This document shows positions 41,988-61,476 of a DNA stretch of 64,000 nt, piece after piece. Source of the stretch: Planctomycetota bacterium. GTDB taxonomy: Bacteria; Planctomycetota; UBA8742; UBA2392. Location of the stretch: assembly GCA_003576915.1 (NCBI GenBank), contig QEVF01000009.1, forward strand, positions 17,638 to 81,637, read 5' to 3'. Every line of letters begins with the position of its first letter. Within the stretch, counting starts at the first letter, position 1. The notes beneath the pieces are model-generated. The model saw only the letters and a list, made by a program, of their open reading frames with translations. It was not told the DNA's origin and did not search any database. Position numbers and translations under genes: made by a program.

Positions 41988-44900
41988 ATGAAAAGCATCC
42001 GAGACAAGTGGTGGCTTCACGCAGGGGTCCTGGGCGCCCTGCTGGGCGGGCTGCTGCTTGCCTGGGTGGCCTTGGGCGCCCATGAAGTTGAACACGCCGC
42101 ACTGCTCAATGACCTGCGCCGCAGCAAGACTGCCGCGGCTCAGGAGACGCCCTTGCAGGCCGGGCGCCGCTTTGGCGGCCTGGCGACGGAAATCGAACAT
42201 CGCCTCGAGGCAGCCAGCCTCGACGAGCGCAACGTGCCCACGGCGCGGTTTCTGGCCGCCCTCCTCAGGCTCTGGCAGGCCGAACGGGAGCTGGATCACC
42301 ATGCCAATACCGCCGACACCCATACCTTCGGGCAGGCGCGAGCCTACGAACGGTTGCTGGCAGCGATGGGCAATGAAGCGCTGACGACCGGAGAGGAATC
42401 TCTGGGCGAAGAACGGGCGGAGGCCGTGCGGCAGGCGCTGGGCGAGGAGTTGCCCACGCGTGAAGGGCTTTCGCGGCGCCTGGAGGCCCTGCACTGGAAG
42501 CTGGCCGCGCGCTGCCTTCGTGAAGGGGACCATCTTGCCGCCTGGCAATATCTGCGCCTGCTGCATGAACCGTTGAGCATCCGCTCCGGGCAGGGCGACG
42601 AACTCTGGGTCTTGCCCTCCCTGGGCGCCCGCGCAGCCGAAAGCATGCAGGCGTTCATGGAGTCCCTGGCGCAGGGGGCCGTCGGCGGCCCGGCGCCCGA
42701 CCTGGCTCAGCAACAGAGGGACTGCGCGGCCATCCTGGACCGATTGGGTTCACTGTGCCGCCTGGCGGCGAGCAGCGCCAAGCCGGCGGGCGAGGAGTTT
42801 GCCCGAAAATCCGAAGAACTGACCAAGCGGGAAAGCGTGCTGGAAGCCGACATCGCCGCCCTGAGCCGGCCGGCGCTCTCGGCGGCGCAGGAGCGCGAGC
42901 ACCTGTCCCGCTATTACCCGGACTCAGCTTCCCTGGAGGCCGCCCTCAAGGACACCGCGCAGCACCGCCTCGACCGTCTGGCCGAGCGCCGCCTGGCGCT
43001 CAAGGTCGAGGTCGAGCGCTACAAATCAGCCCAGGAGGCCCTGCAGGGGTTTCTGCAATACCCCTCCAAACTGGTCCGCGAGGTTGTCAACGCGCCAAGG
43101 GCGCGGGAGGCACTCCGGCAATCCATCGCCGCCGCCCTTGCCGCGCGCCGACCCTGGCTCTTGCCCCTTCCGGGCGCGGCAAGGCAGCCCCTTCCGGAGG
43201 CCGCGCAACTGGCGCAACTGGCCCAGCAGGCCCTGGCCGCGGAGTTGTACCTTTGTGCGGCCCAATGTGCCCGGCTCGCGGGGCGAAAAGATGACGCTTC
43301 GGCGGCGCTGAAGGACATGCAGTCGCACTTTGAGGCCTGGGCTGATCTGGTTCAATTTGAACCGGCCGCAGCGGAAGCGGAATCCGGCCGCGGGCACCTG
43401 GGCGTGAGCCTGCTGGCCGCGGCCAGAGCCCAGATCCAGTCCCGTGTTCAGGGGAGCGCTGGCGAGTCGGCCCAGGTGCAACTGGAGTGGGTGCGGCGCA
43501 TGGAGGCCGCCCTGCTGACCGGCAGTTCCGAACACTCGGCGCTGGCCCTGGACGAGGCCCTGGGGGTCCTGCGCACGCTCAGCGGCCCGCGGCGCCCGGC
43601 GGCGGGCCAGAAGGACGAACAGGGAGAGCCCGAACTGCCCCGGCTGGAAGCACGCTACGAGAGTCTGCGCGATGCCGCGCTGGCCATGCTTGCCCGTGAT
43701 GCGGGCTCGGACCAGCCCGAGGTGCGTGACCTAGGGGAACTGGGTCTGGCACACCTGATGCTCGCGGACGCCGGGTACCGGTTCGACTTCCTCTTCTGGC
43801 AGGATACGGAGCATCTGTCTGCCTTCGCGCGCCCCGGGGAGGGCGCGAAGGCGGCCAGAGCCCGCTGGCTGGAGGGTCCGCCGCGCGAGGCCCGGCGCCA
43901 GGTCGCCGAGATTCTGGCGCGCCTTGAGCAGCGCACCCAGTTTTCGCAGCAACCCCGCCTCTACATCGAAACCAGGCTGCTCAAGGGCCGCCTGCGGGAG
44001 CTTTCGCCGGCCCCCAACTCCCCATCGGGCCTGCTGGGGGACTGGGCGGGGGCCCTGCGGGACATCTATCTGCCCCTGTGCCAGAGTTCAGAACTGCGCA
44101 CCCTGGACCCCTCTGAACAGGGCGCCCTGGACAGCCTGTCCGAGTTCGCCGCGCAGTACCTCCAGAGGCTCGACCGCGTGCTGGCCCTGGCCCCGCAACC
44201 GGATGCCCTTCAGGCGGCCCGCTGGGCCGCCGCCGACGCCTGCAGGCGCGTGCTGGCCGAACTGGGGGCGGTCACCGATCACGTGGCCATGCTCGACCAA
44301 CTGGCGCAGCTTCGGGTTCTGCCGCCCGCGGCACACCGCCGGGCCTATGAACTGCTGGCCCACGTGGCAGGCCTCGAACAGCATCTGGCGCAGGAAGCCC
44401 AGGCCCAGCGCCAGAGCGACAAGGCCCGCAGCTACGCCACGGAAGCCCGCAAGCACTACCGGCTGGCGGCCGCACGCCTGATGGATGACCTCAAGAACCT
44501 TCCCCCCGGCGCCTCGGAAGCCGCCCTCATGTGCTCCCTGGGGCTGTGCTTTGAACAGGGAGGTGAACCCCTGCTGGCGGTGGCCGCCCTTCGCCGCTAC
44601 TTCGCCGCCCGCGATGTTCTGGATCGCGCCGAGGGCAGGGGCAACCATTTCGAGGCCGCCAATGCCATGGCGCGCTCCTTTGAGGCCCTGGAGAACTACA
44701 GCGACGCCGGCAGCGGCAGTGAATTCGGCGGTGCCGTGGCCGCGTGGCGCTGGTCCGTCATGCAGTCCCGGCGCGTGATTGAACGCAGCGGCAAGCTGCC
44801 GCCCCACTCCCTTGAGGCTTTCATCGGCCTGGCGCGCTCGCGCAGGCACCTGGCGCTGGCCAGGCAGGATGCGACGCAACTGACCCTTGCCATGGAGGAG

Positions 44901-45722
44901 CTGGAAGACCACATCCTGCTGGCGCGCATCTTCAAGGTTCCGCCGCGCGACCTCGACCAGACCTCGGCCTGGCGCGACGCCCAGTTCGAGCGTGGCCTCT
45001 GTGCCCTGGAACTGGCCCGCATCGAGCGCGCCTCGGAGGGATTTGTCCCGCACCGCGCGCGCCGCTGGCTGGATCTGGCCCGCCGTTCCTTTGACGACGT
45101 CGTCCAGCGCTTCCACGACGAGGAAAGCGAGCCTGTGCTGCGCGCACAACTGGAACTGGCCCGCGCTGAATGGATGGACGGCGTCTACGTGCCCTCGCCC
45201 CTGTCCGATGCGAGCCTCGATCCCCTCAAGCGCGCCGCCGCCCGCATGCAGGCCCTGACGGCGCAACTCGAAACCCAGCGCGCCCGCAGCGACTCCGCAC
45301 AGATGCCCTTTGAACACGAGGTGCTGGAGCGTGATGCCCTGTGCCTCCAGGGAGACGTGCTGGAACTGCTGGGGCGCCGCCTTGAGGCCATTGCCGCGGC
45401 CCCCCTGGGGCAGCCACAGGACTGGCTGGAGGCCCGCAAACGACTGGAGGGCGCCCTGGCCGCCTATGAGCGCCTTGAGCGCCTGTATGGACAATCCCAC
45501 CTCAGCGCCTGGGCCCTGGCCCAGCGCATCGAGATTCTGCGGCTGCTGGGCACCCGCGCTCCCGTGGACCGCGAACGGGCCCAGGAACTCCTCGACGGCG
45601 CCGAGCGCGCCCTCGAACGCATCACAGAGTCCCAATGGGCTCAGGCCCCCGCCAGCATGGGCAAAGCCTACTGGGAGCAGTGGTTCCGCTGGTATCGCCA
45701 AAGCCGCGCACTGGAGCGCTGA
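41988..45722 (+). CDS. Very large (1244 aa) membrane-anchored helical-repeat protein
   Basis: N-terminal TM helix WWLHAGVLGALLGGLLLAWVALGA. The rest is A/L/E/R-rich helical and TPR-like. Confidence 0.65.
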   Translation: MKSIRDKWWLHAGVLGALLGGLLLAWVALGAHEVEHAALLNDLRRSKTAAAQETPLQAGRRFGGLATEIEHRLEAASLDERNVPTARFLAALLRLWQAERELDHHANTADTHTFGQARAYERLLAAMGNEALTTGEESLGEERAEAVRQALGEELPTREGLSRRLEALHWKLAARCLREGDHLAAWQYLRLLHEPLSIRSGQGDELWVLPSLGARAAESMQAFMESLAQGAVGGPAPDLAQQQRDCAAILDRLGSLCRLAASSAKPAGEEFARKSEELTKRESVLEADIAALSRPALSAAQEREHLSRYYPDSASLEAALKDTAQHRLDRLAERRLALKVEVERYKSAQEALQGFLQYPSKLVREVVNAPRAREALRQSIAAALAARRPWLLPLPGAARQPLPEAAQLAQLAQQALAAELYLCAAQCARLAGRKDDASAALKDMQSHFEAWADLVQFEPAAAEAESGRGHLGVSLLAAARAQIQSRVQGSAGESAQVQLEWVRRMEAALLTGSSEHSALALDEALGVLRTLSGPRRPAAGQKDEQGEPELPRLEARYESLRDAALAMLARDAGSDQPEVRDLGELGLAHLMLADAGYRFDFLFWQDTEHLSAFARPGEGAKAARARWLEGPPREARRQVAEILARLEQRTQFSQQPRLYIETRLLKGRLRELSPAPNSPSGLLGDWAGALRDIYLPLCQSSELRTLDPSEQGALDSLSEFAAQYLQRLDRVLALAPQPDALQAARWAAADACRRVLAELGAVTDHVAMLDQLAQLRVLPPAAHRRAYELLAHVAGLEQHLAQEAQAQRQSDKARSYATEARKHYRLAAARLMDDLKNLPPGASEAALMCSLGLCFEQGGEPLLAVAALRRYFAARDVLDRAEGRGNHFEAANAMARSFEALENYSDAGSGSEFGGAVAAWRWSVMQSRRVIERSGKLPPHSLEAFIGLARSRRHLALARQDATQLTLAMEELEDHILLARIFKVPPRDLDQTSAWRDAQFERGLCALELARIERASEGFVPHRARRWLDLARRSFDDVVQRFHDEESEPVLRAQLELARAEWMDGVYVPSPLSDASLDPLKRAAARMQALTAQLETQRARSDSAQMPFEHEVLERDALCLQGDVLELLGRRLEAIAAAPLGQPQDWLEARKRLEGALAAYERLERLYGQSHLSAWALAQRIEILRLLGTRAPVDRERAQELLDGAERALERITESQWAQAPASMGKAYWEQWFRWYRQSRALER

Positions 45723-47420: not shown

Positions 47421-49451
47421 ATGCGCATCGTGATGCTCAGCCTTCTGTGGATTGCACCGGCCCTGATGGCCCAGTCGCCGGCGCCTGTCGATTTTTTCGG
47501 CCCGGAGCACTTCGCGGCGGCCAGCGAAGACCCTCGGCGCGGCGCGCTGACGGTAAGTTTCGTCAGCGAGATTCCGCCGTTTCTAGATCTGAACAACTCC
47601 GACCCCCTGCCCGCCTCAAACCGCTTTGAGTCCACTCAGACGGGCCTGGTGCTCACGGCCGCGGGCAAAGGCCAGAGCTGCGAGGCGGAACTGGATGCCG
47701 GCTTCGTGCATGCCCTGGGCACGCTGAGCATTGTGGAATTGGACTCCGGAGCCTCGGTCGCGTTTCACCTTCGCTCCCTCAGTTCCGAGGCCACGGGCAC
47801 GCCGCCGGAGTACCTCCTGCTCCTCGCCCGCGACGGGGCTGACTCAGGCCGCCTGCGCCTGCTCACCCGCACTCGAAACGGCTTCTCCGAGACTGCGGCC
47901 GCCCGCCTCGAGAACCACGACTTCAGCGCCGCCGCGACCTTCAGCCTGGCGGCCGGTGCTGACAAAGTCGAGGCCGCCTTCGGCGGCGCTTCGGTCCAGG
48001 GCGCAGCCCGCCTCAAGTCCGGATTCACCCTGGCACTGGCGGCCAGCGACGGACGCTGCCGCGTCCGCGACCTTTCGCTTCAGTGCGAACTTCACGCCCT
48101 CTGGTGGCAGGACGCCCTGGCGCGGCTGGAAGCCAAGCGAACCCTGGCGCGATTGAAGGAATACACCACGCAGGGGCTGCTTTCCGGAGTGTGCCAGGGC
48201 AGCCTGAGGGACGAAGCCGAGGATCTGCGCGCCTACCCGCCCGCCCTGGAACAGGCCCGCCGTGATGCGCTGCAGAATCCCGACTTCGTGCGCCGCTTCA
48301 ACCTGCTGCGCGAGATTGCGGCGGCGCACCCCAAGCTCGCCCTGGCGCAGCACGAGGCAGGCGTTGCTGCCCTGCTCGCGGGCTTTTCGCAGGCCGCCCG
48401 CGACTCCCTGCGCGCCGCCCTGGCCCTGCGCTCCGATTCCCTGACGCGCCTGGCGCTGGCGGAAGCCTGCCTGCGACAGCGCGACTTTGACGCCGCAGGC
48501 CGCCACCTCGAGCAGGCGCGCGACGGGCTGGACGCGAAATTGCTGCCCGACATGGCCCTGTTGAGCGCGCGCCTGGCCGCGGCACGCGGCAACATGGCGC
48601 TGGCCGCGCGGGACCTGACATTGGCGCGCGCACGCTGGCCCGAGCACGCGGCCCTGGCGGCCTTTGCCGCGTCGGCGGAAGAACTTGTCGCTCCTTTGGG
48701 CCTAGCGAAATGGAGCCGGCCGGGCCCCCTTGGCCTGACCGTGGTCAGCGACCTCGACGACGCCGCTCTGGAGAAGCTGCTGGCCCGCCTGGGGCCATAC
48801 ATTGACCGCATCCGCCACTGGCTGCCGGGGCTGGCGCAGAAGCTGGAGGGGTCCATCGCCGTCTACTCGACACCGACGGGCTACCTGCGCGCGGCCCTGC
48901 TGGTGGCGGGCGAGAGCCTCGACAACGTGGCGGGCATGTTTCTGCCCGCAGGCATCGGGGGCGGCCCCAGCGTGGTGGCATGCCGCGCGTTCGGCGAGGA
49001 TGAACTGGCGCGTACGCTGGTGCATGAACTGTGGCACCTTGCCGTGTACTCGCTCAAGGGCAGCGCCATGGCCCCCTGGCTCAACGAGGGCATGGCTGTC
49101 TACCTGTCGGCGGGCCAGGCCGACAAAGACGGCACGCTGCGCTTTGTGCGCCTGCCCAGCGAGTTTTCGCGCATGTCGGAGCAACTGGTCGAGGCGCTCA
49201 GCGATCCCCAGGCCGCCCGGCGTGCGCTCGGCGCGGGTCTGGACTCCTTCTACAGCCCCGATGTGCAGCGCATGAACTATGCCCTGGCCTGGGCCCTGGT
49301 CTGGTATCATTGCGAACATTCGGTGGCGCAGGAGAATGTCCTGCGCGGGCTGCTGGCGGGGGATGCCGCCACCCTGGCTCAATTGCAGGAGGGCCTGCCG
49401 GCGCTGCTCGCGGCCATGGTCCGGGCGCTGAAGGAGCGCAAGCTCGCATGA
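47421..49451 (+). CDS. Secreted TPR-containing putative zinc metallopeptidase (HExxH)
   Basis: The ATG at 47421 gives signal peptide MRIVMLSLLWIAPALMA. LVHELWHLAV is an HExxH motif. Central Ala-rich TPR-like repeats. Confidence 0.6.
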   Translation: MRIVMLSLLWIAPALMAQSPAPVDFFGPEHFAAASEDPRRGALTVSFVSEIPPFLDLNNSDPLPASNRFESTQTGLVLTAAGKGQSCEAELDAGFVHALGTLSIVELDSGASVAFHLRSLSSEATGTPPEYLLLLARDGADSGRLRLLTRTRNGFSETAAARLENHDFSAAATFSLAAGADKVEAAFGGASVQGAARLKSGFTLALAASDGRCRVRDLSLQCELHALWWQDALARLEAKRTLARLKEYTTQGLLSGVCQGSLRDEAEDLRAYPPALEQARRDALQNPDFVRRFNLLREIAAAHPKLALAQHEAGVAALLAGFSQAARDSLRAALALRSDSLTRLALAEACLRQRDFDAAGRHLEQARDGLDAKLLPDMALLSARLAAARGNMALAARDLTLARARWPEHAALAAFAASAEELVAPLGLAKWSRPGPLGLTVVSDLDDAALEKLLARLGPYIDRIRHWLPGLAQKLEGSIAVYSTPTGYLRAALLVAGESLDNVAGMFLPAGIGGGPSVVACRAFGEDELARTLVHELWHLAVYSLKGSAMAPWLNEGMAVYLSAGQADKDGTLRFVRLPSEFSRMSEQLVEALSDPQAARRALGAGLDSFYSPDVQRMNYALAWALVWYHCEHSVAQENVLRGLLAGDAATLAQLQEGLPALLAAMVRALKERKLA

Positions 49452-49726
49452 ACGACCTTCCGCCCCTGCCCCCGGTTTCACCCCAGAGCACAGCCGAAGT
49501 GGCCGGCGCCCGAAGGGTGCAGGACCCCCTGGCGCGGGCCGGCGCGATTTCCGGAGAAGTCAAGGATGCCGCCGCAACTTCGCCCGACCGCGACGCCGAC
49601 GGCCACCAGGCGCCCGGCCACGATGGGGGCAAGGCCGCCCCGGACGAAAAGCCCGGTGCGGACGAAGACCCGACAGGCAGAGACCGGCGGCCCTCGCTGG
49701 GCATCGTGATTGACGTGGAGGCTTGA
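49448..49726 (+). CDS. Small acidic/Pro-rich ORF translationally coupled on both sides
   Basis: ATGA overlap with the upstream stop and TGATG overlap with the surE start. Low-complexity sequence. Confidence 0.35.
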   Translation: MNDLPPLPPVSPQSTAEVAGARRVQDPLARAGAISGEVKDAAATSPDRDADGHQAPGHDGGKAAPDEKPGADEDPTGRDRRPSLGIVIDVEA

Positions 49727-50526
49727 TGCGGATTCTGGTGACCAACGACGACGGTATGAACGCCAGCGGGCTGGTGACGCTGGAAAAGGCGGTGCAACGC
49801 CTGGGCGGCGAGGTCTATGTCGTCGCCCCGGAGCAGGAGCACAGCGCGCAAAGCCACGCCATTACCGTGCGCCAGCCCGTATTCGCGCGCACACTGCCCC
49901 TGACGCACGGCGAGAAGCAGCGCATCGCCATCAGCGGGACGCCCTGCGACTGTGTGCGCCTGGCCTGCATCAAGCTTCTTGAGCACAAGCCCGATCTCTG
50001 CGTTACCGGCATCAACCACGGCGCCAACCTGGGCTGGGACGTGTTCTTTTCAGGCACCGTTTCGGCCGCGGCCGAGGCGCACAGCTTCGGCATTCCAGCC
50101 ATTGCCTTTTCACTGGCCACCTGGAGCAAGCCGGACTGGACCAACCTCGACCTGCTCGTGGCGGACCTGCTGCGCTCGCTGCTGGCCGCGCGCCACACCC
50201 AGCGCAACTTTCTGTACAGCGTGAACATACCCCCCATCCCGCCGGCGAAGATGCAGGGCGCGAAGATCACCCGGCTCGAGCCCCTGGTCAAGGGCGACAA
50301 CTTTGAAGAGCGCGAAGCTCCCGACGGGCGGCGCTACTACTGGCCCACCTGGGACGAACGCAAGGCCGCGCGCGACAGGATTACCGATGAGCGCTATGAC
50401 AGCGCCGCCGTGCGCGCCGGCTACATCAGCATTACGCCGCTGCGCTATGACGTCAGCGCCATCGAGGATGCGGCGCTGACGCCGGTGTTCTCCGACTACA
50501 AGCCGGGCCGGGCCCTTGAAGCCTGA
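49726..50526 (+). CDS. surE: 5'/3'-nucleotidase SurE
   Basis: MRILVTNDDGMNASGL and GINHGANLG motifs. Confidence 0.9.
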   Translation: MRILVTNDDGMNASGLVTLEKAVQRLGGEVYVVAPEQEHSAQSHAITVRQPVFARTLPLTHGEKQRIAISGTPCDCVRLACIKLLEHKPDLCVTGINHGANLGWDVFFSGTVSAAAEAHSFGIPAIAFSLATWSKPDWTNLDLLVADLLRSLLAARHTQRNFLYSVNIPPIPPAKMQGAKITRLEPLVKGDNFEEREAPDGRRYYWPTWDERKAARDRITDERYDSAAVRAGYISITPLRYDVSAIEDAALTPVFSDYKPGRALEA

Positions 50527-50543
50527 GAAGCGTTCATGCGCCT

Positions 50544-50903
50544 TCAGGCCCGCCTGAACTTCTCGCAGGCGTAGGGCTGGTCTTTCAGCGCTTTGCACAG
50601 CGCGTCTTCGGTCAGCTCGCAACCCGCCTTCATGGTGATGGTCAGCGTTTCGTGTTTCTCGTCCAGGCTCACCTCGTCCACACCGTCCAGTGCGAGCACC
50701 AGCTTCCTGAGGGCGGCTGCGCCTTCGGCGTCCTTGACTCCGCTGACCGAAACTTCATATTTCGCTGCCTTCACGGGCAGGTTGCGCGGGCCTCAGCCCG
50801 CTCACAGAAAGTCGGGCGTTGCGCCCCCGGCGCCAAAGGGCGCCGCCGACAGCGCGCCGCAGGACAGTGCGGCCAGCAAAACCAGCGTGAGCATCCTGTG
50901 CAT
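50544..50903 (-). CDS. Exported protein with N-terminal UAGU motif (two in-frame TGA) followed by an HMA-like ferredoxin-fold domain; putative selenoprotein A
   Basis: GAGGAG lies 6 nt upstream of the ATG at 50903. Signal peptide MHRMLTLVLLAALSCGALSA. The TGAs at 50802-50804 and 50793-50795 are in frame with the 76-aa ORF at 50544-50774, reading ..DFL-U-AG-U-GPRNLPVKAAKYEVSVSGV.. The listed ORF starts only at an internal GTG. Confidence 0.6.
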
Positions 50904-50960
50904 GGCATTCTCCTCAGGCCCCGATTGGGACGCCGGCGCGGCCGTCGAGGTTCCGCCAAT

Positions 50961-51272
50961 TCAGGGACCGGCAGGCGTCAGGGGGCTCAACTGGCGCAGG
51001 GTTACCCCCTGTTCGAGGGCCAACCGCTCAAGGGCAGCGCGCAGGGCCTGCTCCGTGCCAAGCCAGGTGATGTGAAACTCGCCCTGGGGCTCTTCGTATA
51101 CGCTTTGGACGCCATCCAGGCGCGCGATCATCTGATCGAAACCGGGTCAGTCCTCGCCTCACTGCCCGTAATCGAGCCAGGCGAGATAGTGGTGGGGCGG
51201 GGGCGCCTGCGGTTTGGGCGGGGCCGCACAGGCGGCGAGCAGCAGCAAGGACGTGAGCCACATCAAGCGCAT
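50961..51272 (-). CDS. Lipoprotein with HMA-like domain carrying UGEDU at the metal-binding loop (two in-frame TGA); putative selenoprotein B
   Basis: The ATG at 51272 gives MRLMWLTSLLLLAAC (lipobox). The TGAs at 51159-51161 and 51147-51149 are in frame. My manual translation downstream is stop-free to the TGA at 50961: ..YLAWLDYGQ-U-GED-U-PGFDQMIARLDGVQSVYEEPQGEFHITWLGTEQALRAALERL.. I see no clear SD. Confidence 0.55.
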
Positions 51273-51283
51273 GTCATAGAATA

Positions 51284-51315
51284 GAAAACCGGGCAACTGG
51301 CGTCGCCCGGTTTTC
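51284..51315 (-). terminator. Intrinsic terminator-like hairpin downstream of selenoprotein C
   Basis: On the minus strand, GAAAACCGGGC-GACGCCAGTT-GCCCGGTTTTC is followed by TATTCT. Confidence 0.6.
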
Positions 51316-51333
51316 GTATTGCGGCGGAGGATG

Positions 51334-51753
51334 CTACTTGCCGGAGCCCTTGTTCCCGTCAGTTCCGTCCTTCTTTTCTTCCTTCTTTTCTTCCTTGGTC
51401 TCCTCGCCTTCCTTGGCGAAAGAGCGGACGCTGAACTTGCTGTCCTCGAAGGCCTTGACGACCGCATCCTTCTCGATCGTCTTGCCTTCCTTCATCGTGA
51501 CGGTGGCTTCCTGCTTCTTCTTGTCCCACGTTGCTTTTTCCACGCCTTCCAGGCTGGAGAGGGTCTTGACGACCGCAGGTCCTCACGTCGCTCACGTCGC
51601 GCCGTCGATGCCAACCTTGTAAACCGTGGGTGCTGCCTTGGCCGGCTGCTCGGCCTTCTTTTCTTCGCCCTTGCTCTCCTGGGCCTGGCAGGCCACGCCC
51701 GCCACACTGACCGAGAGCAGGAGCGCGGCAGCGACGAATCCCATCTGACGCAT
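51334..51753 (-). CDS. Exported HMA/MerP-like protein with GAT-U-AT-U-G at the GMTCxxC position (two in-frame TGA); putative selenoprotein C
   Basis: AGGAGG lies 6 nt upstream of the ATG at 51753. Signal peptide MRQMGFVAAALLLSVSVAGVAC. TGAs at 51592-51594 and 51583-51585. The readthrough product VYKVGIDGATUATUGPAVVKTLSSLEGVEKATWDKKKQEATVTMKEGKTIEKDAV aligns with the Cys paralog VVTIEGMTCIKCAKAVEKAIAAIDGVESVKVCDKSGKALVTMKEGKTLDKTAV. Confidence 0.7.
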
Positions 51754-51825
51754 GTGCATCCTCCTGTTAGAGAAATGGAAACAACCCTTCCATATGGAAC
51801 TACGGAGGGCAGCTTAGCATTCCGC

Positions 51826-51858
51826 AAAAAAAGAGGGAGCGGCGCAGGCCGCTCCCTC
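51826..51858 (-). terminator. Strong rho-independent terminator after the Cys-type HMA gene
   Basis: On the minus strand, GAGGGAGCGGC-CTGC-GCCGCTCCCTC (11-bp stem) is followed by TTTTTTT. Confidence 0.8.
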
Positions 51859-51877
51859 GGCATGCGGGCGCAGAAGA

Positions 51878-52360
51878 CTAGCCCTTGGACTTCTCTGCCG
51901 TCTTCGCTTCCTTGTTCTCGTCCTTCTTGGGTTCGGCCTTCACGACGGACTTGGTCTTGAACTCCGTCTCCTTGAGGGCCGTCTCGACGGCGGTCTTGTC
52001 AAGGGTCTTGCCTTCCTTCATGGTGACCAGCGCCTTGCCGGACTTGTCGCAGACCTTGACGGACTCAACACCGTCAATGGCGGCAATGGCCTTCTCCACG
52101 GCCTTGGCGCACTTGATGCAGGTCATGCCTTCAATCGTCACGACAAAGCTGTTGGCCTTGACCTCGCCGCAGCCGCCACAATCCTTGGCATCGCCCTTGT
52201 CACAGCAGCCCTTGCCTTCTTCTTCACAGCACTTCTCGCCGTCCTTCTTCTCGCTCTTCTTGTCGCCGCAGCTATCACAGCCCTTGCACTGGGCCATCAG
52301 CGGGGCGCCGGCGAAAGCCAGGCCGAGGAAGAGCATCAAAGCAGTCAGGAACTTCGTCAT
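51878..52360 (-). CDS. Exported Cys-rich HMA domain protein (MerP/CopZ-like, canonical GMTCxxC)
   Basis: The ATG at 52360 gives signal peptide MTKFLTALMLFLGLAFAGAPLMA. A Cys-rich linker follows (CKGCDSCG..CCEEEGKGCCDKGDAKDCGGCG), then VVTIEGMTCIKCAKAVEKAI. Confidence 0.85.
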   Translation of the reverse strand: MTKFLTALMLFLGLAFAGAPLMAQCKGCDSCGDKKSEKKDGEKCCEEEGKGCCDKGDAKDCGGCGEVKANSFVVTIEGMTCIKCAKAVEKAIAAIDGVESVKVCDKSGKALVTMKEGKTLDKTAVETALKETEFKTKSVVKAEPKKDENKEAKTAEKSKG

Positions 52361-52459
52361 GTCGTCTCCGTTCATTAGTGCGGGGCAAGGCCCCATCGTG
52401 GTTGTCGTAAGCGGCCCATTATAGACGAACGGGCCGGGTCCGTCCTTACATCAAAATGG

Positions 52460-52936
52460 TCATTTCACCTTGTGTCGCGCCTTGAGCGCCTTCCAGTCTC
52501 CCTGCAGGTCCTCCTTGAAGCTGAAGACCTCATAGCCGAAGTCCTTGTAGATGAAGTCTGTGACAGTCTTCTCGTCCAGCCGGATCTGGGGCTTGCACAG
52601 GACGAAAAGCGTGAATTCCTCGATCACGGTGAAGCTGTCCAGCAACCCATACTGGGTGGTGAGGGCGTCCACGACGCCCGTGGTTCAGCCGCCTCAGTCG
52701 ATGCCCTTGAGGCCGATGGCGTAGATCACCTCCCTGATTTCCGGCCTGGCTTCCGGTTCCGCCTTGGGTTCAACCTTCGGCTCGGCCTTGGGCTGGGGCC
52801 TCGCGCCGCAGCCGGAGTCAACGGAAGCAGGCTCGCCGCCGCCCTTGCGCAGATGCACGGGCTGGAAGTCTTCTTTGGTGAGCTGGCAGCCGCCCGTCAG
52901 GGCCAGCAGCAACAGGGCCAGGAGTCCGCGGTTCAT
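52460..52936 (-). CDS. Lipoprotein with HMA-like domain carrying UGGU at the metal-binding loop (two in-frame TGA); putative selenoprotein E
   Basis: GAGGAG lies 6 nt upstream of the ATG at 52936. Lipobox LALTGGC. The TGAs at 52694-52696 and 52685-52687 join the listed ORFs 52694-52936 and 52460-52672 in one frame: ..EVIYAIGLKGID-U-GG-U-TTGVVDALTTQYG.. Confidence 0.65.
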
Positions 52937-52946
52937 AGCCTTCTCC

Positions 52947-53834
52947 TCAAATCAGGTAGCTGAACATCAGCATGAATTCGCCTTCATGGTAGAACTGCTT
53001 GCCGAACAGATAGCGATAAACCGGCAGGTTCAGCCCGAACTTGCACTCGATGCGGTTGGTGATGTTCATCTGCATGCCAAGCGCCAGATGTACGAAATAG
53101 CCGCCGCTGTTGTCATCGCGGTCGCCGTGCATGCGTCCGCGGTGCTCAAAGCGGGCGTCGGCCTCCACCAGCAGAATCAGGTCAAAATCGCGGTAATCCG
53201 TAAGCTGGAACACGCGATAGGCGTAGGCCAGGTGGGCCTGGGCTTCGGGGCCCGCGCCGCTGCCGTCAATCTGGGTGCTGCCGCGCCCCGCCAGGTCAAA
53301 CCAGAGGTAGTGGCGTGTGGTGCTGGTGGAAGCTGAGAGGCCGAACGTGAACGTCCAGTTGTCGTCAAACTCGTCGCCCATGGGCTCGCCGTGGCGCCGC
53401 GTGGCCGTGGGCATGTCGATCGTGGCAAACCACGACGCCTTGGTGGAACCGCCCTCAAACACGTTGTTGAGGAAGCGGTAAGTGCCGGCCAGAGAGAACT
53501 TGCGGGCGCCGGAGTAGACCTCGCTCCCGTCCTTGCTGTGTTCGCGCATGTAGAAGTAGGGCGTCTTGATCCGCATGGCGAAGTCGCGCGAGAACCCGTA
53601 GGTGACGCCGGGCTCGATGGTGTGCATGAACATGCGGCGGTCGCGCCCGTTGGAATCGGGGTTGTCGCCGCTGAAATAGCGGAAGGCCCAGTCGAACTCC
53701 TGCTCGAGTTCAAGTTCGAGGCCCTTGTTCCAGATGGTTCTGGGTCCCAGTCCGAACATGGTTTCGTGGGCGCTCACGGCGCCCGCGCCCAGAACTCAGA
53801 CCAGTGCCAGCAAAGCCAGGTGCTTCAGCGTCAC
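52947..53834 (-). CDS. Putative outer-membrane beta-barrel protein with one in-frame TGA inside the signal peptide
   Basis: The GTG at 53834 is preceded by AAGGAG with a 6-nt spacer and overlaps the merR stop (GTGA). The N-terminus MTLKHLALLALV-[TGA 53796-53798]-VLGAGAVSA|HE is a signal peptide. The body has alternating beta-strand-like sequence and ends ..MLMFSYLI. Confidence 0.6.
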
Positions 53835-54274
53835 GCCGGACTCCTTTTCTTGCCCTTGGGGGCCCTGGTTGGACCGCCTTCTATGCCTTGGAGGATGCTG
53901 CAGCATTCGGTGCTCTTGTCGCCGCCGGGGCAGCGTTCAATGAGGTCAGCGAGGTGATCGCGCATCTCGGTCAGCAGCTCGATTTTGCGAGTAATCTCGA
54001 TGAGCTTGCGCGAGGCAAGCTCGCTGACGTCTCCGCAGGTGGCGAGGTCGGAGGTGCGCAGGAACAGCAGGTCCTGAATCTCTTTGAGCGTGAAGCCGAC
54101 ATCCTTGGCGCGCTGGATGAAGCGCAGGCGCGCGACGTCGTCGTCGCCGTAGAGGCGATGGCCGCCGGCGCTGCGCTCGGGTTTGGGCAACAGACCCTCG
54201 CGCTCATAAAAGCGCACGGTTTCGATGTTGATGCCCGTGGACTCGGCCAGCTTGCCTACCGTCATGGTGGTCAT
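53831..54274 (-). CDS. merR: MerR-family regulator with the mercury-type Cys triad
   Basis: The HTH is KLAESTGINIETVRFYEREGLL. Cys80, Cys115 and Cys124 have the same spacing (35 residues, then C-x8-C) as Cys82, Cys117 and Cys126 of Tn501 MerR as I recall it. Confidence 0.85.
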   Translation of the reverse strand: MTTMTVGKLAESTGINIETVRFYEREGLLPKPERSAGGHRLYGDDDVARLRFIQRAKDVGFTLKEIQDLLFLRTSDLATCGDVSELASRKLIEITRKIELLTEMRDHLADLIERCPGGDKSTECCSILQGIEGGPTRAPKGKKRSPA

Positions 54275-54291
54275 GTGGCACCTCGGGGAAC

Positions 54292-54322
54292 AAGTTACCT
54301 CCGTAGCTTACTACGGGTTCAA
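54292..54322 (-). promoter_or_regulatory. MerR-type promoter/operator: -35 TTGAAC, 19-bp spacer containing dyad CCGTAG-N4-CTACGG, -10 TAACTT
   Basis: The minus strand reads TTGAAC CCGTAGTAAGCTACGGAGG TAACTT. The spacer counts to 19 nt. The dyad resembles the Tn501 mer operator (TCCGTAC-N4-GTACGGA). It lies ~18 nt upstream of the merR ATG. Confidence 0.75.
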
Positions 54323-54363
54323 GGGAATTGGCAGGAATCAGAACGGCAGCAACTGCGCAGAGT

Positions 54364-54391
54364 CTGGAAGCTGGTGGTCAGGGCCGGACTT
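54364..54391. repeat. Direct repeat of the tRNA-Phe 3' end (copy distal to the tRNA)
   Basis: ctgGaagctggtggtcagggccggactt matches 54525-54552 at 27 of 28 positions, with 24 contiguous identities. Confidence 0.9.
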
Positions 54392-54494
54392 CGAGCAGCC
54401 GCTGCGCGGCTGCGAGACAGCGCAGCAGCCCGGCCCACAGGCCGGGCGTAAGCGTAGCGGCGGCGAGCGCAGCGAGACGAAAACCTCACGAAAT

Positions 54495-54518
54495 GACCCC
54501 GGCAGGTCGCCCGGGGTC
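54495..54518 (-). terminator. Hairpin terminator downstream of tRNA-Phe
   Basis: GACCCCGG-N8-CCGGGGTC is followed on the minus strand by ATTTCGTGAGGTTTTCG. Confidence 0.55.
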
Positions 54519-54524
54519 ACTGTG

Positions 54525-54552
54525 CTGAAAGCTGGTGGTCAGGGCCGGACTT
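54525..54552. repeat. Direct repeat copy overlapping the 3' end of tRNA-Phe
   Basis: See 54364-54391. Confidence 0.9.
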
Positions 54553-54608
54553 GAACCGGCGACCCATGCATTTTCAGTGCATTGCTCTACCAACTGAGCT
54601 ACCTGACC
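54533..54608 (-). tRNA. tRNA-Phe (anticodon GAA), CCA encoded
   Basis: The minus strand reads GGTCAGG TA GCTC AGTTGGTA GAGC A ATGCA CTGAAAA TGCAT GGGTC GCCGG TTCAAGT CCGGC CCTGACC A CCA. This gives a complete cloverleaf. Confidence 0.9.
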
Positions 54609-54717
54609 CTGTGCCGCGTCTTGCCGCGGCAGGCGCGAAAAGGTAGCAGCAATCGGGACTACGTCAACCCGCTGGCGGCGTTTAGTATGCCGGCGGCACA
54701 TCGCACGCGGAGGCACC

Positions 54718-55905
54718 GTGAAAATCTCGGACATCGTCATCACCCACGCCCGGCGCACCCCCATTGGCAAGTACTCCGGGGCGCTGGCACCCCTGAACGC
54801 CGTCCAGCTTGGCACCCACGCCGTCAGCGCTGTGCTCAGGCAAAGCGCCATCGACCCCGGCCTCGTGGGCCAGGTAATCATGGGCCACGGGCGGCAGGCG
54901 GGCAACGGCCCCAACACGGCGCGCCAGGTGGCCATTCGCGCCGGTCTGCCTGAAACCTGCATCGCGTACACCATCAACATGGCCTGCGCTTCGGGCCTCA
55001 AGGCCATTGTCAACGCCGCCCTCGCCATCACCAGCGGCGAATGCGAAGCGGCCATTGCCGGCGGCATGGAAAGCATGACCAACGTGCCCTTCATGCTCAC
55101 CTCAGACGCCCGCAACGGCTGGCGCATGGGGCACCACGAAGTCACCGACCTCATGTATCGCGACGGATTCCTCTGCCCCCTGGCCGACCAGCTCATGGGC
55201 CGCACGGCCGAGACTTTGCGCATCCAGTACAACATCAGCCGCGCCGAGCAGGACGAATTCGCCGCAGCCTCCCACAACAAGGCCGAAGCAGCCCTCAAGG
55301 CAGGCCGCTTCAAGGATGAAATCGCGCCCGTGACCCTGCGCGACAAGAAGGGCGAAACCCTGCTGGACCGCGACGAAGGCGTACGCGAGGGCTGTACCCC
55401 CGACCAGATGGCCAAGCTCAAGCCCGTGTTCATGGACGACGGCACCGTCCACCCCGGCAACGCCTCGGGCATCACAGACGGCGGCAGCGCACTCCTGCTC
55501 ATGAGCGCGGAAAAGGCCTCAAAGCTCGGCTTCAAGCCCCTGGCGCGGCTGGAAGGTTATGCCTTTGCCGGCGTGGACCCCAAAGTCATGGGGCTGGGGC
55601 CCGTGCCGGCCACCGCGGACATCAACCGCAAGCTGGGACTCAGCATCGACCAGTATGACCTCGTTGAACTCAATGAAGCTTTTGCGGCCCAGGTGCTGGC
55701 CTGCGACCGCGAGATGAAGATCCCCCGCGACCGGCTCAACGTCAATGGCGGCGCCATTGCCCTGGGTCACCCCATCGGCAACACGGGGGCCCGCATCGTG
55801 ACCACTCTGGCCCATGAACTGCGCCGGCGCGGCGGCAGGCGCGGCCTGGCCACGCTCTGCGTCAGCGGCGGCCTGGGCGCCTCCCTGGCCATCGCTGCGG
55901 TGTGA
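54718..55905 (+). CDS. Acetyl-CoA C-acetyltransferase (thiolase II)
   Basis: GTG start. NMACASGLKAI (Cys), NGGAIALGHPIGNTGARI, CVSGGLGASLAI. Confidence 0.9.
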   Translation: MKISDIVITHARRTPIGKYSGALAPLNAVQLGTHAVSAVLRQSAIDPGLVGQVIMGHGRQAGNGPNTARQVAIRAGLPETCIAYTINMACASGLKAIVNAALAITSGECEAAIAGGMESMTNVPFMLTSDARNGWRMGHHEVTDLMYRDGFLCPLADQLMGRTAETLRIQYNISRAEQDEFAAASHNKAEAALKAGRFKDEIAPVTLRDKKGETLLDRDEGVREGCTPDQMAKLKPVFMDDGTVHPGNASGITDGGSALLLMSAEKASKLGFKPLARLEGYAFAGVDPKVMGLGPVPATADINRKLGLSIDQYDLVELNEAFAAQVLACDREMKIPRDRLNVNGGAIALGHPIGNTGARIVTTLAHELRRRGGRRGLATLCVSGGLGASLAIAAV

Positions 55906-60192: not shown

Positions 60193-61476
60193 ATGAGACC
60201 TCTTGCCCTGACACTCCTCGCCGCAATGCTCGCCGCACCCCTGGCCTGCCAGGACCGCACCGACGAAATCCGACGCGCCATGGAACCCGCCGATGCAGCC
60301 TCCCCCGCCAAGCCCGCCGCTCCCTCCGCCCAAGCCCACGACACCGGCCCCGGCGAAAACTTCATCCGCCGCTGGGAGCGCGGCGCCGGAGAAATTGACA
60401 GCCCCGCGGGCAAGTTCCGCCTCGGCGGTTATGCCTCGCTCCACCACAAGACCATCGAGAAGTACAACGGCGGCAACTCGACCAACTTCTTTGATTCCAT
60501 CCGAGTCGTTCCGCAGATGGACTGGGAGGTCACGGACTGGCTCGAGTTCGCCATCGAGATCGAGTTCGAAGGCGGCGGCGCCGGCGCCCCCTACCTTACC
60601 AACAACTACATCGTGCTCGAGTACGCCGAGGCCCGCGCCACGCCCCTGGACGAACTCAACTTCAAGGCCGGCATCCTGCTCGTGAACTGGGGCCGCTACA
60701 ACCGCAACCACGACGACATCCTCTGGGACCTCGCCGACCGTCCCTTCGCCACGCGCCTGATCGTGCCCGGCACCTTCATGCAGCCCGGCGCCGGCGTCTA
60801 CGGCAGCTTCAATCAGGTCCCCTTCATCAGCTTCAATTACGACATCGCCGTCACCCAGGGCCTCAACAGCAACTTCAGCAGCAACGACGGCTCACGCAAC
60901 GCGCGCACCTCCTTCCGTGTCGACAACAACGACAACAAGGCGCTGTGGTTCCATTTCGGCATGATGCCCGATTTCGGGACCGACATGGTCACCGCCGATG
61001 TCGGCGCTTCCTTCACCTATCAGCAGATTGCCGTGGGCAACCGCGAATCCCTGCGCGGCGTCGGCGTGGACGGCGGCCTGAAGTTCAAGGTCGTCGAGCG
61101 CTTCGGCATTGACGTCACCGGTGAGTTCAGCCGCATGTGGATCAACCGCTCGTCCTCGCCCACCGTACCCAACGGCCTCTGGGGCTGGTTCGCTGACGTG
61201 CTCTTCAAGTTTGACCCCTTCCCCGCCGCCTGGCGCGAGAAGGTCTTTGGCGCCAACCCCTACATCGGCCTCATTTTCCGCCTCGAGCAGAACGACCTCA
61301 ACGACGACTACAAAGGCGCGGCCGCCAACGACGACCGCTTCGCCGTCACCATCGGCCTGAGCTTCCGCCCCATCTCCAAGCTCGTGCTGCGTCTTGAGTG
61401 GAAGAACACCCAGGCCCGTAACCGTGACGATGGCGATGAAAACACCTACGTCATCAGCACCTCCATCGGCTTCTAG
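60193..61476 (+). CDS. Outer-membrane porin-like beta-barrel
   Basis: Signal peptide MRPLALTLLAAMLAAPLAC. Alternating strand pattern and a C-terminal ...YVISTSIGF with terminal Phe. Confidence 0.65.
   Translation: MRPLALTLLAAMLAAPLACQDRTDEIRRAMEPADAASPAKPAAPSAQAHDTGPGENFIRRWERGAGEIDSPAGKFRLGGYASLHHKTIEKYNGGNSTNFFDSIRVVPQMDWEVTDWLEFAIEIEFEGGGAGAPYLTNNYIVLEYAEARATPLDELNFKAGILLVNWGRYNRNHDDILWDLADRPFATRLIVPGTFMQPGAGVYGSFNQVPFISFNYDIAVTQGLNSNFSSNDGSRNARTSFRVDNNDNKALWFHFGMMPDFGTDMVTADVGASFTYQQIAVGNRESLRGVGVDGGLKFKVVERFGIDVTGEFSRMWINRSSSPTVPNGLWGWFADVLFKFDPFPAAWREKVFGANPYIGLIFRLEQNDLNDDYKGAAANDDRFAVTIGLSFRPISKLVLRLEWKNTQARNRDDGDENTYVISTSIGF

What the first reader, a model, noticed from the sequence alone, without database searches (positions are those of the whole stretch)
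51334..52360. Adjacent Cys/Sec paralog pair: GMTCIKCAKAVEKAI versus GATUATUGPAVVKTL, with the Sec pair embedded in a 9-nt tandem duplication
The two neighbouring genes align over the whole HMA domain, including a near-identical VTMKEGKT(L/I)(D/E)K(T/D)AV block. Both Cys of the canonical gene correspond to TGA in the other. At the DNA level the Sec motif is a perfect tandem repeat, GCGACGTGA GCGACGTGA (minus strand, 51583-51600). The second Sec codon may therefore have arisen by a 3-codon slippage duplication (ATU-ATU). That would be an unusual, visible mechanism for creating a UxxU site.
Basis: seen in the sequence. Interest (0 to 1): 0.85.

Follow-up and report, generated by a model that had tools for sequence, protein, structure and literature searches.

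The report
Double-selenocysteine metal-binding protein operon
The two in-frame TGAs are almost certainly real selenocysteine codons in an exported metal-binding protein, one of four such proteins in a Planctomycetota operon, but the neat 9-base repeat around them arose from a recent single-base change and did not create the second selenocysteine.

Summary
Observation confirmed. Gene g2 (51334-51753, minus) is an HMA-domain paralogue of the CxxC gene g1 (51878-52360). Both Cys positions are TGA, inside a perfect 9-nt tandem (51583-51600) that recurs in five independent assemblies.

Interpretation only partly holds. Nine distinct orthologues (35-95% identity) all carry U-x-x-U at the same spacing, with xx = AT, AS, AG, GS or GM. 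The second repeat unit is GCGTCG, GCGGGC or GGTTCG elsewhere. A locus tree puts TCG as the ancestral codon. So the perfect repeat came from one T>A change in this lineage, and no single-U or shorter allele exists. Sec/Cys swaps elsewhere in the family are TGA/TGC point differences.

The locus holds more than was reported. A MerR-type promoter and regulator head a conserved Planctomycetota operon. It encodes an outer-membrane beta-barrel and four exported double-Sec proteins: gA 52460-52936, g2, g3 50961-51272 and g4 50544-50903. That is eight Sec codons. The barrel's own signal peptide also carries an in-frame TGA. Conserved hairpins follow the TGAs, with compensatory changes in gA and g4.

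HMA UxxU selenoproteins are already catalogued (NCBIfam NF041115), but g2 scores below that cut-off. I rate it a new variant of a known kind. The likely function is soft-metal capture in the cell envelope; this is inferred, not shown.

The parts
51334..51753 (-). g2: exported HMA-domain protein with Sec-x-x-Sec (GIDGAT-U-AT-U-GPAVVKTL), N-terminal signal peptide and Lys/Glu-rich tail
   Evidence: orthologues; dN/dS
51592..51594 (-). g2 UGA no. 1 (Sec codon, opposite the first Cys of CxxC)
51583..51585 (-). g2 UGA no. 2 (Sec codon, opposite the second Cys of CxxC)
51583..51600 (-). Perfect 9-nt tandem GCGACGTGA x2. It is derived in this lineage by one substitution in the second unit.
51562..51574 (-). 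g2 hairpin H1 (GGUC-GUCAA-GACC). The loop lies 12 nt after UGA2 and 21 nt after UGA1, the same geometry as gA H1.
51539..51558 (-). g2 hairpin H2 (UCCAGCC-UGGAA-GGCgUGGA, bulged G). The loop lies 31 nt after UGA2. It is invariant in orthologues and overlaps the LxGV codons.
51878..52360 (-). g1: Cys paralogue, an exported HMA protein with a Cys-rich N-terminal region and GMTCIKC
52460..52936 (-). gA: lipoprotein with an HMA-like core, GID-U-GG-U-TTGVVDAL (TGAs at 52696-52694 and 52687-52685). Gene callers split it into 80-aa and 70-aa ORFs. It is the most widely conserved Sec gene of the operon.
52643..52679 (-). gA hairpins H1 (52663-52679) and H2 (52643-52659) downstream of its two UGAs, with compensatory changes
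50961..51272 (-). g3: lipoprotein with YGQ-U-GED-U-PGFD (TGAs at 51161-51159 and 51149-51147)
50544..50903 (-). g4: signal peptide, then DFL-U-AG-U-GP (TGAs at 50804-50802 and 50795-50793), then an HMA-like domain without loop cysteines
50765..50780 (-). g4 hairpin CUGCC-CGUGAA-GGCAG. The loop lies 17 nt after UGA2, two pairs show compensatory changes, and the loop is invariant.
52947..53834 (-). p270: outer-membrane beta-barrel (FapF/COG4313-like). Its GTG start overlaps the MerR stop. An in-frame TGA at 53798-53796 sits inside the signal peptide, followed by hairpin GGGCGC-CGUGA-GCGCCC (about 53768-53784).
53831..54274 (-). MerR-family metal-responsive regulator. The three Hg-MerR ligand cysteines are conserved.
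54292..54322 (-). MerR-type promoter: TTGAAC, a 19-nt spacer holding the dyad CCGTAG-TAAG-CTACGG, then TAACTT
51833..51858 (-). Intrinsic-terminator-like hairpin plus T7 between g1 and g2
51284..51315 (-). Intrinsic-terminator-like hairpin after g2

Best explanation
g2 is a genuine bacterial selenoprotein. It is a secreted, MerP/CopZ-like HMA-fold metal-binding protein in which both ligand cysteines of the ancestral GMTCxxC loop have been replaced, codon for codon, by selenocysteine (TGC/TGT to TGA point changes).

It belongs to a conserved Planctomycetota operon driven by a MerR-type promoter and regulator. The operon encodes an outer-membrane beta-barrel (p270), a Cys paralogue (g1) and four exported double-Sec proteins (gA, g2, g3, g4).

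The UGAs are decoded with the help of hairpins in the coding sequence just downstream. In gA and g2 there are two adjacent hairpins at identical positions. H1 has a GU-containing loop 12 nt after UGA2 and 21 nt after UGA1. H2 lies 31-32 nt after UGA2.

Most likely the proteins form a cell-envelope relay or sink for a soft, thiophilic metal ion. Hg(II)-like is favoured by the regulator's three cysteines. The diselenolate site would give tighter and faster binding than a dithiolate.

The perfect 9-nt tandem is a by-product. The ancestor already read GCG-ACG-TGA-GCG-TCG-TGA (Ala-Thr-Sec-Ala-Ser-Sec), and one T>A change (Ser to Thr) in the window/L008 lineage made the two units identical.

Shown here: paralogy, conservation of the TGAs and the frame, purifying selection downstream, operon synteny, hairpin conservation and covariation, and the polarity of the repeat.

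Inferred only: Sec insertion itself, which hairpin serves which UGA, the identity of the metal, and the direction of metal flow.
For: TGAs lie opposite both Cys of the paralogue with no gap, and the protein passes the HMA gathering score. The same 18 nt occur in five independent assemblies.

Nine distinct orthologues keep both TGAs and the frame while xx varies. dN/dS after the TGAs is 0-0.44, and dS is lower downstream than upstream in the divergent pairs, for example 0.56 vs 1.37 for L012.

TGA is the ordinary stop codon of this genome (20 of 28 long ORFs), so there is no global reassignment.

The tree ((win,L008),L012),((L011,L016),L010) with outgroup L017 places TCG in both clades.

Sec/Cys interchange at fixed spacing appears in distant operons: UANC (TGA..TGC) in L018/L024/L025 against CDGC/CDSC in L020/L022, and LICACC against LLURGUC in g4.

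Synteny MerR-p270-gA-(g1)-g2-g3-g4 holds in 8+ loci, and all 17 p270 homologue clusters that carry a name are from Planctomycetes.

Hairpins:
- gA: 94% of cells paired, 5 of 14 pairs with compensatory changes, 0/500 shuffles reach the observed score.
- g4: 100% paired, 2 compensatory pairs, invariant CGUGAA loop.
- g2: the same two-hairpin layout, 97% paired.
- Cys paralogues lack this layout.

The regulator is closest to Hg-MerR 4ua1, with C79, C114 and C123 aligned, and TIGR02051 is its top NCBIfam hit. The promoter has a 19-nt spacer with a dyad and is conserved. p270 is modelled as an outer-membrane barrel (pLDDT 79, TM 0.72-0.75 to 4rl8).

HMA UxxU selenoproteins are an accepted class (NF041115). 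The Sec trait is documented in Planctomycetes (PMC4807772).
Against: No selA, selB, selC or selD was found in the window: there is no tRNA-Sec, and nothing among 10 long ORFs scanned. The rest of the genome could not be searched.

The g2 hairpins are nearly invariant, so they carry almost no covariation of their own. H1 is only 4 bp. H2 overlaps the conserved LxGV codons, which are partly self-complementary even in Cys paralogues. Single-sequence folds are not better than shuffles.

The regulator scores below every NCBIfam equivalog cut-off (132 vs 150.85 for MerR; ZntR is close behind). No merT or merA is present, so the metal is not established.

Terminator-like hairpins flank g2, so its co-regulation with the MerR promoter is uncertain.

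There is no protein-level evidence.
Confidence: 0.78

Rival explanations
1. One reading: the second Sec codon was created by a 9-nt (3-codon) replication-slippage duplication of GCGACGTGA, turning a single-U site into UxxU.
For: There is a perfect 2-copy tandem in the window and in L007/L008/L015. Perfect 9-nt tandems are enriched in this window (4 vs 0.46 expected), so slippage does occur in this genome.
Against: All orthologues, including the outgroup-like L017, have UxxU with non-repeat xx codons. The perfect repeat is confined to one shallow lineage on the tree. There is no length difference from CxxC paralogues. Three other UxxU or UxxxU genes in the operon have no repeat. No single-U, one-unit allele was found.
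Confidence: 0.03
2. The last step to a perfect repeat was a short templated event, such as copy-choice or microhomology-mediated conversion of unit 2 by unit 1, rather than an independent point mutation. UxxU would still predate it.
For: The ancestral state was already 8/9 identical, which favours template switching. Tandems are enriched in the window.
Against: A single T>A difference cannot distinguish conversion from point mutation, and point mutation is the simpler account. Ser to Thr is a conservative change at a variable position (AT, AS, AG, GS, GM).
Confidence: 0.1
3. The TGAs are true stops. The locus is a set of decaying pseudogenes or split small ORFs, and no full-length HMA protein is made.
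For: Gene callers split every one of these genes. No Sec machinery was seen in the window.
Against: TGAs occur only at Cys-equivalent ligand positions, in pairs, in four genes. They are conserved down to 35-45% protein identity, with the frame and purifying selection maintained downstream. Structured hairpins with compensatory changes follow them. The fragments would lack either the signal peptide or the metal-binding site.
Confidence: 0.04
4. The UGAs are read through but not as Sec, for example by near-cognate Cys or Trp insertion or another local recoding.
For: The identity of the inserted residue was not tested. The signal-peptide UGA of p270 sits at a hydrophobic position where Sec has no obvious role.
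Against: The exact Cys-to-TGA correspondence, the downstream hairpins at about 17-21 nt, and the known Sec trait in the phylum are the classical selenoprotein signature. Known HMA UxxU selenoproteins exist.
Confidence: 0.05

Closest known systems
NCBIfam NF041115 'UxxU_metal_bind' metal-binding (seleno)protein, also listed as 'putative mercuric reductase, UxxU' from the Olavius delta-1 symbiont (reviews PMC13188914 and PMC9312934, citing Zhang & Gladyshev 2007)
   Same: A small HMA-fold protein in which both cysteines of the CxxC metal loop are selenocysteine (2 Sec, UxxU). It is the top NCBIfam hit for g2.
   Different: g2 scores 34.2 bits against a cut-off of 95, so it is not a member. g2 has a signal peptide and a Lys/Glu-rich tail. 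It is found in Planctomycetota, in an operon with a MerR regulator, an outer-membrane barrel and three further double-Sec proteins that match no NCBIfam or Pfam family.
MerP (TIGR02052), the periplasmic Hg(II)-binding protein of mer operons
   Same: An exported HMA domain with a metal-binding loop at the start of helix 1. It sits under a MerR-type regulator whose three Hg-ligand cysteines are conserved.
   Different: g2 scores 33.5 bits against a cut-off of 92.55. It has Sec instead of Cys. No merT, merA or merC is in the locus. There are several paralogues, lipoproteins and an outer-membrane barrel instead of an inner-membrane uptake and reduction pathway.
CopZ-type copper chaperones, and the MerT/CopZ fusion-like heavy-metal transport selenoprotein (NF045683)
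   Same: HMA fold, and Sec-for-Cys substitution in a metal-handling protein.
   Different: Those proteins are cytoplasmic or membrane-fused, and all scores are far below cut-off (27.5 vs 375 for NF045683). The regulator has a Cys at the position that is Ser in CueR. From established knowledge of the MerR family, this argues against a Cu(I)/Ag(I) sensor; I did not test it here beyond the alignment.
Bacterial SECIS elements (E. coli fdhF type)
   Same: A hairpin inside the coding sequence. Its apical loop contains GU and lies about 17-21 nt after the UGA: p270 and g4 at 17 nt, gA and g2 H1 at 21 nt from UGA1. By my recollection, E. coli fdhF has about 18 nt.
   Different: Two UGAs 9 nt apart share the downstream region. 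In gA, g2 and g3 two tandem hairpins follow, so either one hairpin at a compromise distance (12/21 nt) or one hairpin per UGA is used. Rfam has no matching family.

Membership tests
Bacterial selenoprotein gene (UGA decoded as Sec) | In-frame UGA aligned with Cys in homologues | tested here: met
   Both TGAs lie opposite the CxxC of g1. U/C interchange is seen in distant orthologues.
Bacterial selenoprotein gene (UGA decoded as Sec) | UGA and downstream reading frame conserved in orthologues under purifying selection | tested here: met
   9 distinct orthologues; dN/dS 0-0.44 downstream.
Bacterial selenoprotein gene (UGA decoded as Sec) | SECIS-like hairpin in the coding sequence shortly after the UGA | tested here: inconclusive
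   For g2, two hairpins are conserved (97% paired) but nearly invariant, and H1 is only 4 bp. The same layout in paralogue gA has compensatory changes, as does the g4 hairpin. Binding to SelB was not tested.
Bacterial selenoprotein gene (UGA decoded as Sec) | selA, selB, selC (tRNA-Sec) and selD present in the same genome | not testable with these tools
   None in the 64-kb window (partial Pfam scan). The Sec trait is documented in other Planctomycetes (PMC4807772).
Bacterial selenoprotein gene (UGA decoded as Sec) | UGA is otherwise a stop codon in the organism (local, not global, recoding) | tested here: met
   20 of 28 long ORFs in the window end in TGA.
HMA domain (Pfam PF00403) | Score above the gathering threshold, with the metal loop at the beta1-alpha1 junction | tested here: met
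   31.8 bits against 24.8 with U read as C, covering residues 49-107.
NCBIfam NF041115 UxxU_metal_bind | Whole-protein score at or above the curated cut-off (95 bits) | tested here: not met
   34.2 bits. Same kind of protein, but a different family.
MerP (TIGR02052) / canonical mer operon | Score at or above 92.55 bits, and a merT/merA context | tested here: not met
   33.5 bits. No MerT or MerA domains among the called genes of the locus.
Hg(II)-responsive MerR (TIGR02051) | Score at or above 150.85 bits; three conserved ligand cysteines | tested here: inconclusive
   132.2 bits, below the cut-off, with ZntR close behind. C79, C114 and C123 align with Hg-MerR 4ua1.
Slippage-duplication origin of the second Sec codon | One-unit (single-U, 3-residue-shorter) alleles or length polymorphism among relatives, with the repeat ancestral | tested here: not met
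   All relatives have two U at fixed spacing, and the repeat is perfect only in one shallow lineage. There is no indel against Cys paralogues.

The most novel reading that the evidence does not exclude
The operon is a selenium-dependent metal-capture system of the cell envelope, gated at the level of translation. The outer-membrane barrel p270 carries a Sec codon inside its cleaved signal peptide, followed by its own GU-loop hairpin exactly 17 nt downstream. This holds in two clades even though the UGA sits at different codons. The barrel would therefore be exported only when Sec insertion is working, that is, when selenium is available to make the four diselenolate binding proteins. A Sec codon that never reaches the mature protein and acts purely as a selenium checkpoint would be a new regulatory use of recoding. 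The paired hairpins after UxxU would also be the first natural system for asking how bacterial SelB serves two UGAs 9 nt apart.
Probability: 0.2. Interest if true: 0.85.

Novelty: new variant of a known kind. Interest (0 to 1): 0.6.

Why it matters
Selenoproteins that use Sec as a metal ligand rather than a redox catalyst are few and entirely uncharacterised experimentally. This locus packs eight Sec codons, in four exported proteins with a Cys paralogue alongside as a built-in control, behind a metal-sensing MerR promoter. That makes the question of what Sec buys over Cys in metal binding directly testable.

The locus also offers natural material for a long-standing mechanistic question: how a coding-region SECIS serves two UGAs only 9 nt apart.

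It flags a systematic annotation failure, since every one of these genes is split into fragments in public gene calls.

For the narrow claim that was handed on, the result is negative. The eye-catching tandem repeat is not a visible birth of a Sec codon.

Tried and rejected
- A protein search with full-length g2 (U read as C) gave no hit at E<=1e-3.
- The first genome-collection scan with g2 alone found nothing. Orthologues were reached only through an alignment-based metagenome scan, and through the neighbouring p270 gene.
- Rfam, even at E<=10, shows no SECIS-like family in 49000-55000.
- Single-sequence folds of the g2 and g3 regions are no better than shuffles (z from -1.57 to +0.35), so the structure claims rest on comparative data only.
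- The intergenic region upstream of g2 is not conserved apart from the ribosome-binding site, so no separate operator could be defined.
- A Pfam scan of 10 long window ORFs found no SelA, SelB or SelD.
- Folding energy alone does not separate g2 from Cys paralogues (g2 -14 to -17 kcal/mol, Cys forms -12 to -23). Only the two-hairpin layout does.
- Global UGA reassignment was considered and rejected.
Full report
**1.
On the minus strand, 51334-51753 reads MRQMGFVAAALLLSVSVAGVACQAQ...TVYKVGIDGAT*AT*GPAVVKTLSSLEGVEKATWDKKKQEATVTMKEGKTIEKDAVVKAFEDS...GSGK. The TGAs are at 51594-51592 and 51585-51583. Tandem Repeats Finder gives a period-9, 2.1-copy, 100%-match array at 51582-51600.

With the TGAs read as Cys or Sec, the protein passes the Pfam HMA gathering score (31.8 vs 24.8 bits). 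It aligns without gaps to the upstream neighbour g1 (51878-52360...VVTIEGMTCIKCAKAVEKAI...). Identity is 38% over 100 residues (E 2e-15), both TGAs lie opposite the CxxC cysteines, and the VTMKEGKT block is shared.

The locus is 100% identical in Logan and ENA assemblies of several different runs. The 18-nt repeat is present in five of them, including one that differs at nine other positions. Assembly artefact is therefore excluded.

As a repeat it is not extraordinary. The window contains four perfect 9-nt tandems, against 0.46 expected from a first-order model.

**2. Orthologues decide the origin question.**
A metagenome scan with the g1/g2 alignment returned six relatives. Using the neighbouring gene p270 as an anchor gave two GTDB genomes, both Planctomycetota MAGs, and nine more contexts.

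Nine distinct g2 sequences all keep G-x-(T/S)-U-x-x-U at identical spacing. The middle residues are AT (window, L007/L008/L015), AS (L009, L010), AG (L011, L016, L021), GS (L012) and GM (L017). In DNA the second unit is GCGACG, GCGTCG, GCGGGC, GGTTCG or GGTATG. The first unit also varies (GCCACG in L016 and L021).

A neighbour-joining tree of p270 gives ((window,L008),L012),((L011,L016),L010), with L017 outside. TCG occurs in both main clades, so the ancestor read ...ACG TGA GCG TCG TGA. A single T>A change (Ser to Thr) in the window/L008 lineage made the repeat perfect.

No one-unit allele exists, and there is no length polymorphism and no indel relative to the CxxC paralogues. Where Sec and Cys alternate in the wider family, they differ by one base at fixed spacing: UANC = TGA..TGC in L018/L024/L025 against CDGC/CDSC in L020/L022, and LICACC in L017 against LL-U-RG-U-C.

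The slippage-duplication origin of the second Sec is therefore not supported. A short templated conversion cannot be told apart from a point mutation for that last single base. Either way, UxxU predates the repeat.

**3. The downstream half is translated.**
The frame is open and conserved after the TGAs in all orthologues. dN/dS for codons +4 to +52 is 0-0.44. dS there is lower than upstream in the divergent pairs (0.56 vs 1.37 for L012; 0.29 vs 0.73 for L016). That fits an extra RNA-level constraint.

TGA is the normal stop codon in this genome: 20 of 28 long ORFs end in it. The recoding is therefore local.

**4. What is really there is an operon rich in paired Sec codons.**
When TGA is read through, three more neighbouring genes turn out to be double-Sec genes.
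- **gA (52460-52936).** Gene callers give it as an 80-aa plus a 70-aa ORF. It is one lipoprotein...VIYAIGLKGID-U-GG-U-TTGVVDALTTQ... The motif is conserved as G(I/M/V)D-U-G(G/Q/E)-U in all 15 distinct loci, down to operons whose p270 is only about 40% identical.
- **g3 (50961-51272).** A lipoprotein with Y(GQ/DS/ET)-U-GE(D/G/S)-U-PGFD, conserved at 42% identity.
- **g4 (50544-50903).** A signal peptide, then DFL-U-AG-U-GP, then an HMA-like domain lacking loop cysteines. Relatives have QLL-U-xG-U-C, or Cys instead.

Some relatives add a fifth gene, DGMS-U-GIK-U (L011, L016).

The gene order MerR - p270 - gA - (g1) - g2 - g3 - g4 is conserved, with surE on the other strand. gA, g3 and p270 match no Pfam or NCBIfam family.

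**5. The other components.**
- **p270.** With 16 homologues it models as a beta-barrel (pLDDT 79, pTM 0.74). It matches the outer-membrane channels FapF and COG4313 (TM 0.72-0.75 to 4rl8).
- **The regulator (53831-54274).** It is a MerR-family protein whose best solved relative is Hg(II)-MerR of Bacillus megaterium (4ua1, 102 bits). All three mercury-ligand cysteines align. TIGR02051 MerR is the top NCBIfam hit, but below its cut-off (132 vs 151 bits), with ZntR close behind.
- **The promoter.** Upstream lies TTGAAC, a 19-nt spacer containing the dyad CCGTAG-TAAG-CTACGG, then TAACTT (54292-54322). It is conserved in relatives. A long spacer with a dyad is the hallmark of MerR-activated promoters (established knowledge).
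- **Terminators.** Terminator-like hairpins flank g2 (51833-51858 and 51284-51315). It is therefore open whether g2 is fully co-transcribed with the rest.

**6. Hairpins after the UGAs.**
- **gA (15 sequences).** RNAalifold finds two adjacent 7-bp hairpins. 94% of cells are paired, against 37-53% when the partner is slid. Five of 14 pairs show compensatory changes, and 0 of 500 shuffles reach the observed score.
- **g4.** A 5-bp hairpin with an invariant CGUGAA loop has two compensatory pairs and is 100% paired.
- **g2 (9 sequences).** The layout is the same as in gA. H1 is GGUC-GUCAA-GACC (51562-51574). H2 is UCCAGCC-UGGAA-GGCgUGGA (51539-51558). They are 97% paired but almost invariant, so they carry little independent covariation.
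- **Cys paralogues.** These lack the two-hairpin layout.

The number of nucleotides between a UGA and the first loop base is:

| Site | Hairpin | From UGA2 | From UGA1 |
|---|---|---|---|
| p270 (single UGA) | single | 17 | - |
| g4 | single | 17 | 26 |
| gA and g2 | H1 | 12 | 21 |
| gA and g2 | H2 | 31-32 | 40-41 |
| g3 | H1 | 13 | 25 |
| g3 | H2 | 28 | 40 |

Two readings fit. Either H1 is placed midway so that both UGAs are about 4.5 nt off the 17-nt optimum, or H1 serves UGA1 and H2 serves UGA2. This is inference.

**7. An unexpected extra: a TGA inside a signal peptide.**
The predicted signal peptide of p270 contains an in-frame TGA (53798-53796: VTLKHLALLALV*VLGAGAVSA|HETMFG). The same is seen in L008, L015 and L010. 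It occurs at a different codon in L018, L022, L024 and L025 (MRLRYL*LLLLPAVLLAGPLAA|HNT), and again in L019. L011, L016, L012, L017 and L023 have a sense codon instead.

Without read-through the barrel has no signal peptide. In both clades a hairpin with a CGUG-type loop starts exactly 17 nt after the UGA. The same segment folds more weakly in the relatives that lack the TGA (-6.6 to -10.2 against -11.8 to -15.9 kcal/mol). I could not explain this feature. A selenium-availability checkpoint is one possibility.

**8. Comparison with what is known.**
HMA-fold UxxU selenoproteins are already catalogued. [quoted passage not shown] A MerT/CopZ-fusion selenoprotein (NF045683) also exists.

g2 scores 34 bits against the 95-bit cut-off of NF041115, and 33.5 against 92.55 for MerP. 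It works like these proteins but is not a member of either family.

The differences are these: the proteins are exported; there are several paralogous double-Sec proteins in one MerR-type operon with an outer-membrane barrel; and the host is Planctomycetota. The Sec trait is documented in that phylum (PMC4807772). I found no mention of this operon, or of Sec codons in signal peptides, in the papers searched.

**9. Verdict.**
The reading of the TGAs as a Sec pair is well supported, though the Sec machinery and the protein product are untested. The proposed slippage origin is rejected.

The most likely function is capture or hand-off of a soft divalent metal (Hg-like) in the periplasm and outer membrane by diselenolate HMA sites. 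This is inferred from the fold, the export signals and the regulator.

I rate the novelty as a new variant of a known kind. Interest is moderate to high. It comes from the operon and the signal-peptide UGA rather than from the repeat.

Noticed in passing
window 52460-52936 (minus): The two small ORFs of 80 aa and 70 aa are one lipoprotein gene, gA, with in-frame GID-U-GG-U (TGAs at 52696-52694 and 52687-52685). It is conserved in all 15 distinct related loci and matches no Pfam or NCBIfam family.
   Followed up: yes
window 50961-51272 (minus): Lipoprotein g3 has two in-frame TGAs three residues apart (YGQ-U-GED-U-PGFD). Both are conserved at about 42% identity in L011, L012 and L016. It has no family match.
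   Followed up: partly
window 50544-50903 (minus): The 33-aa ORF plus the 76-aa HMA-like ORF are one gene, g4. It has a signal peptide, then DFL-U-AG-U-GP, then an HMA-like domain without loop cysteines. L017 has LICACC at the same place.
   Followed up: yes
window 53796-53798 (minus), within p270 52947-53834: There is an in-frame TGA inside the predicted signal peptide of the outer-membrane barrel. It recurs at two or three different codon positions in several clades and is absent in sister lineages. Where examined (the window clade and the L018/L022/L024/L025 clade), a GU-loop hairpin starts 17 nt downstream. It is unexplained; a selenium checkpoint is one idea.
   Followed up: partly
window 54292-54322 (minus): MerR-type promoter: TTGAAC, a 19-nt spacer with the perfect dyad CCGTAG-TAAG-CTACGG, then TAACTT. 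It is conserved in L008, L011, L012, L016 and L017.
   Followed up: partly
window 51833-51858 and 51284-51315 (minus): Strong intrinsic-terminator-like hairpins lie immediately before and after g2, so g2 may be a separate or attenuated transcription unit. The upstream intergenic sequence is not conserved except for AGGAGGATGCACATG.
   Followed up: partly
L011 5833-6150 and L016 9847-10143: An extra HMA paralogue has DGMS-U-GIK-U, that is, three residues between the two Sec in an otherwise canonical HMA loop.
   Followed up: no
L018 ~7562, L024 ~2843, L025 ~4337 versus L020 ~7378, L022 ~3267: In distant operons the single HMA gene is EGMH-U-ANC (one Sec) in three loci and EGMH-C-D(G/S)C in two. 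This is a natural Sec/Cys series differing by TGA/TGC.
   Followed up: partly
window 43203-43222, 45467-45484, 60921-60938: Three other perfect 9-nt tandem duplications occur in the window. With the one in g2 that makes 4, against 0.46 expected.
   Followed up: no
window ~51785-51800 (minus): A perfect 12-bp palindrome, TTCCATATGGAA, sits in the g1-g2 intergenic region. It is present in the window and L008 but not in more distant relatives.
   Followed up: no
window 51368-51396: A 12-nt tandem (2.4 copies, 100%) encodes the EEKK repeats of the g2 tail. The Lys/Glu-rich tails of g1 and g2 vary in length between orthologues.
   Followed up: no
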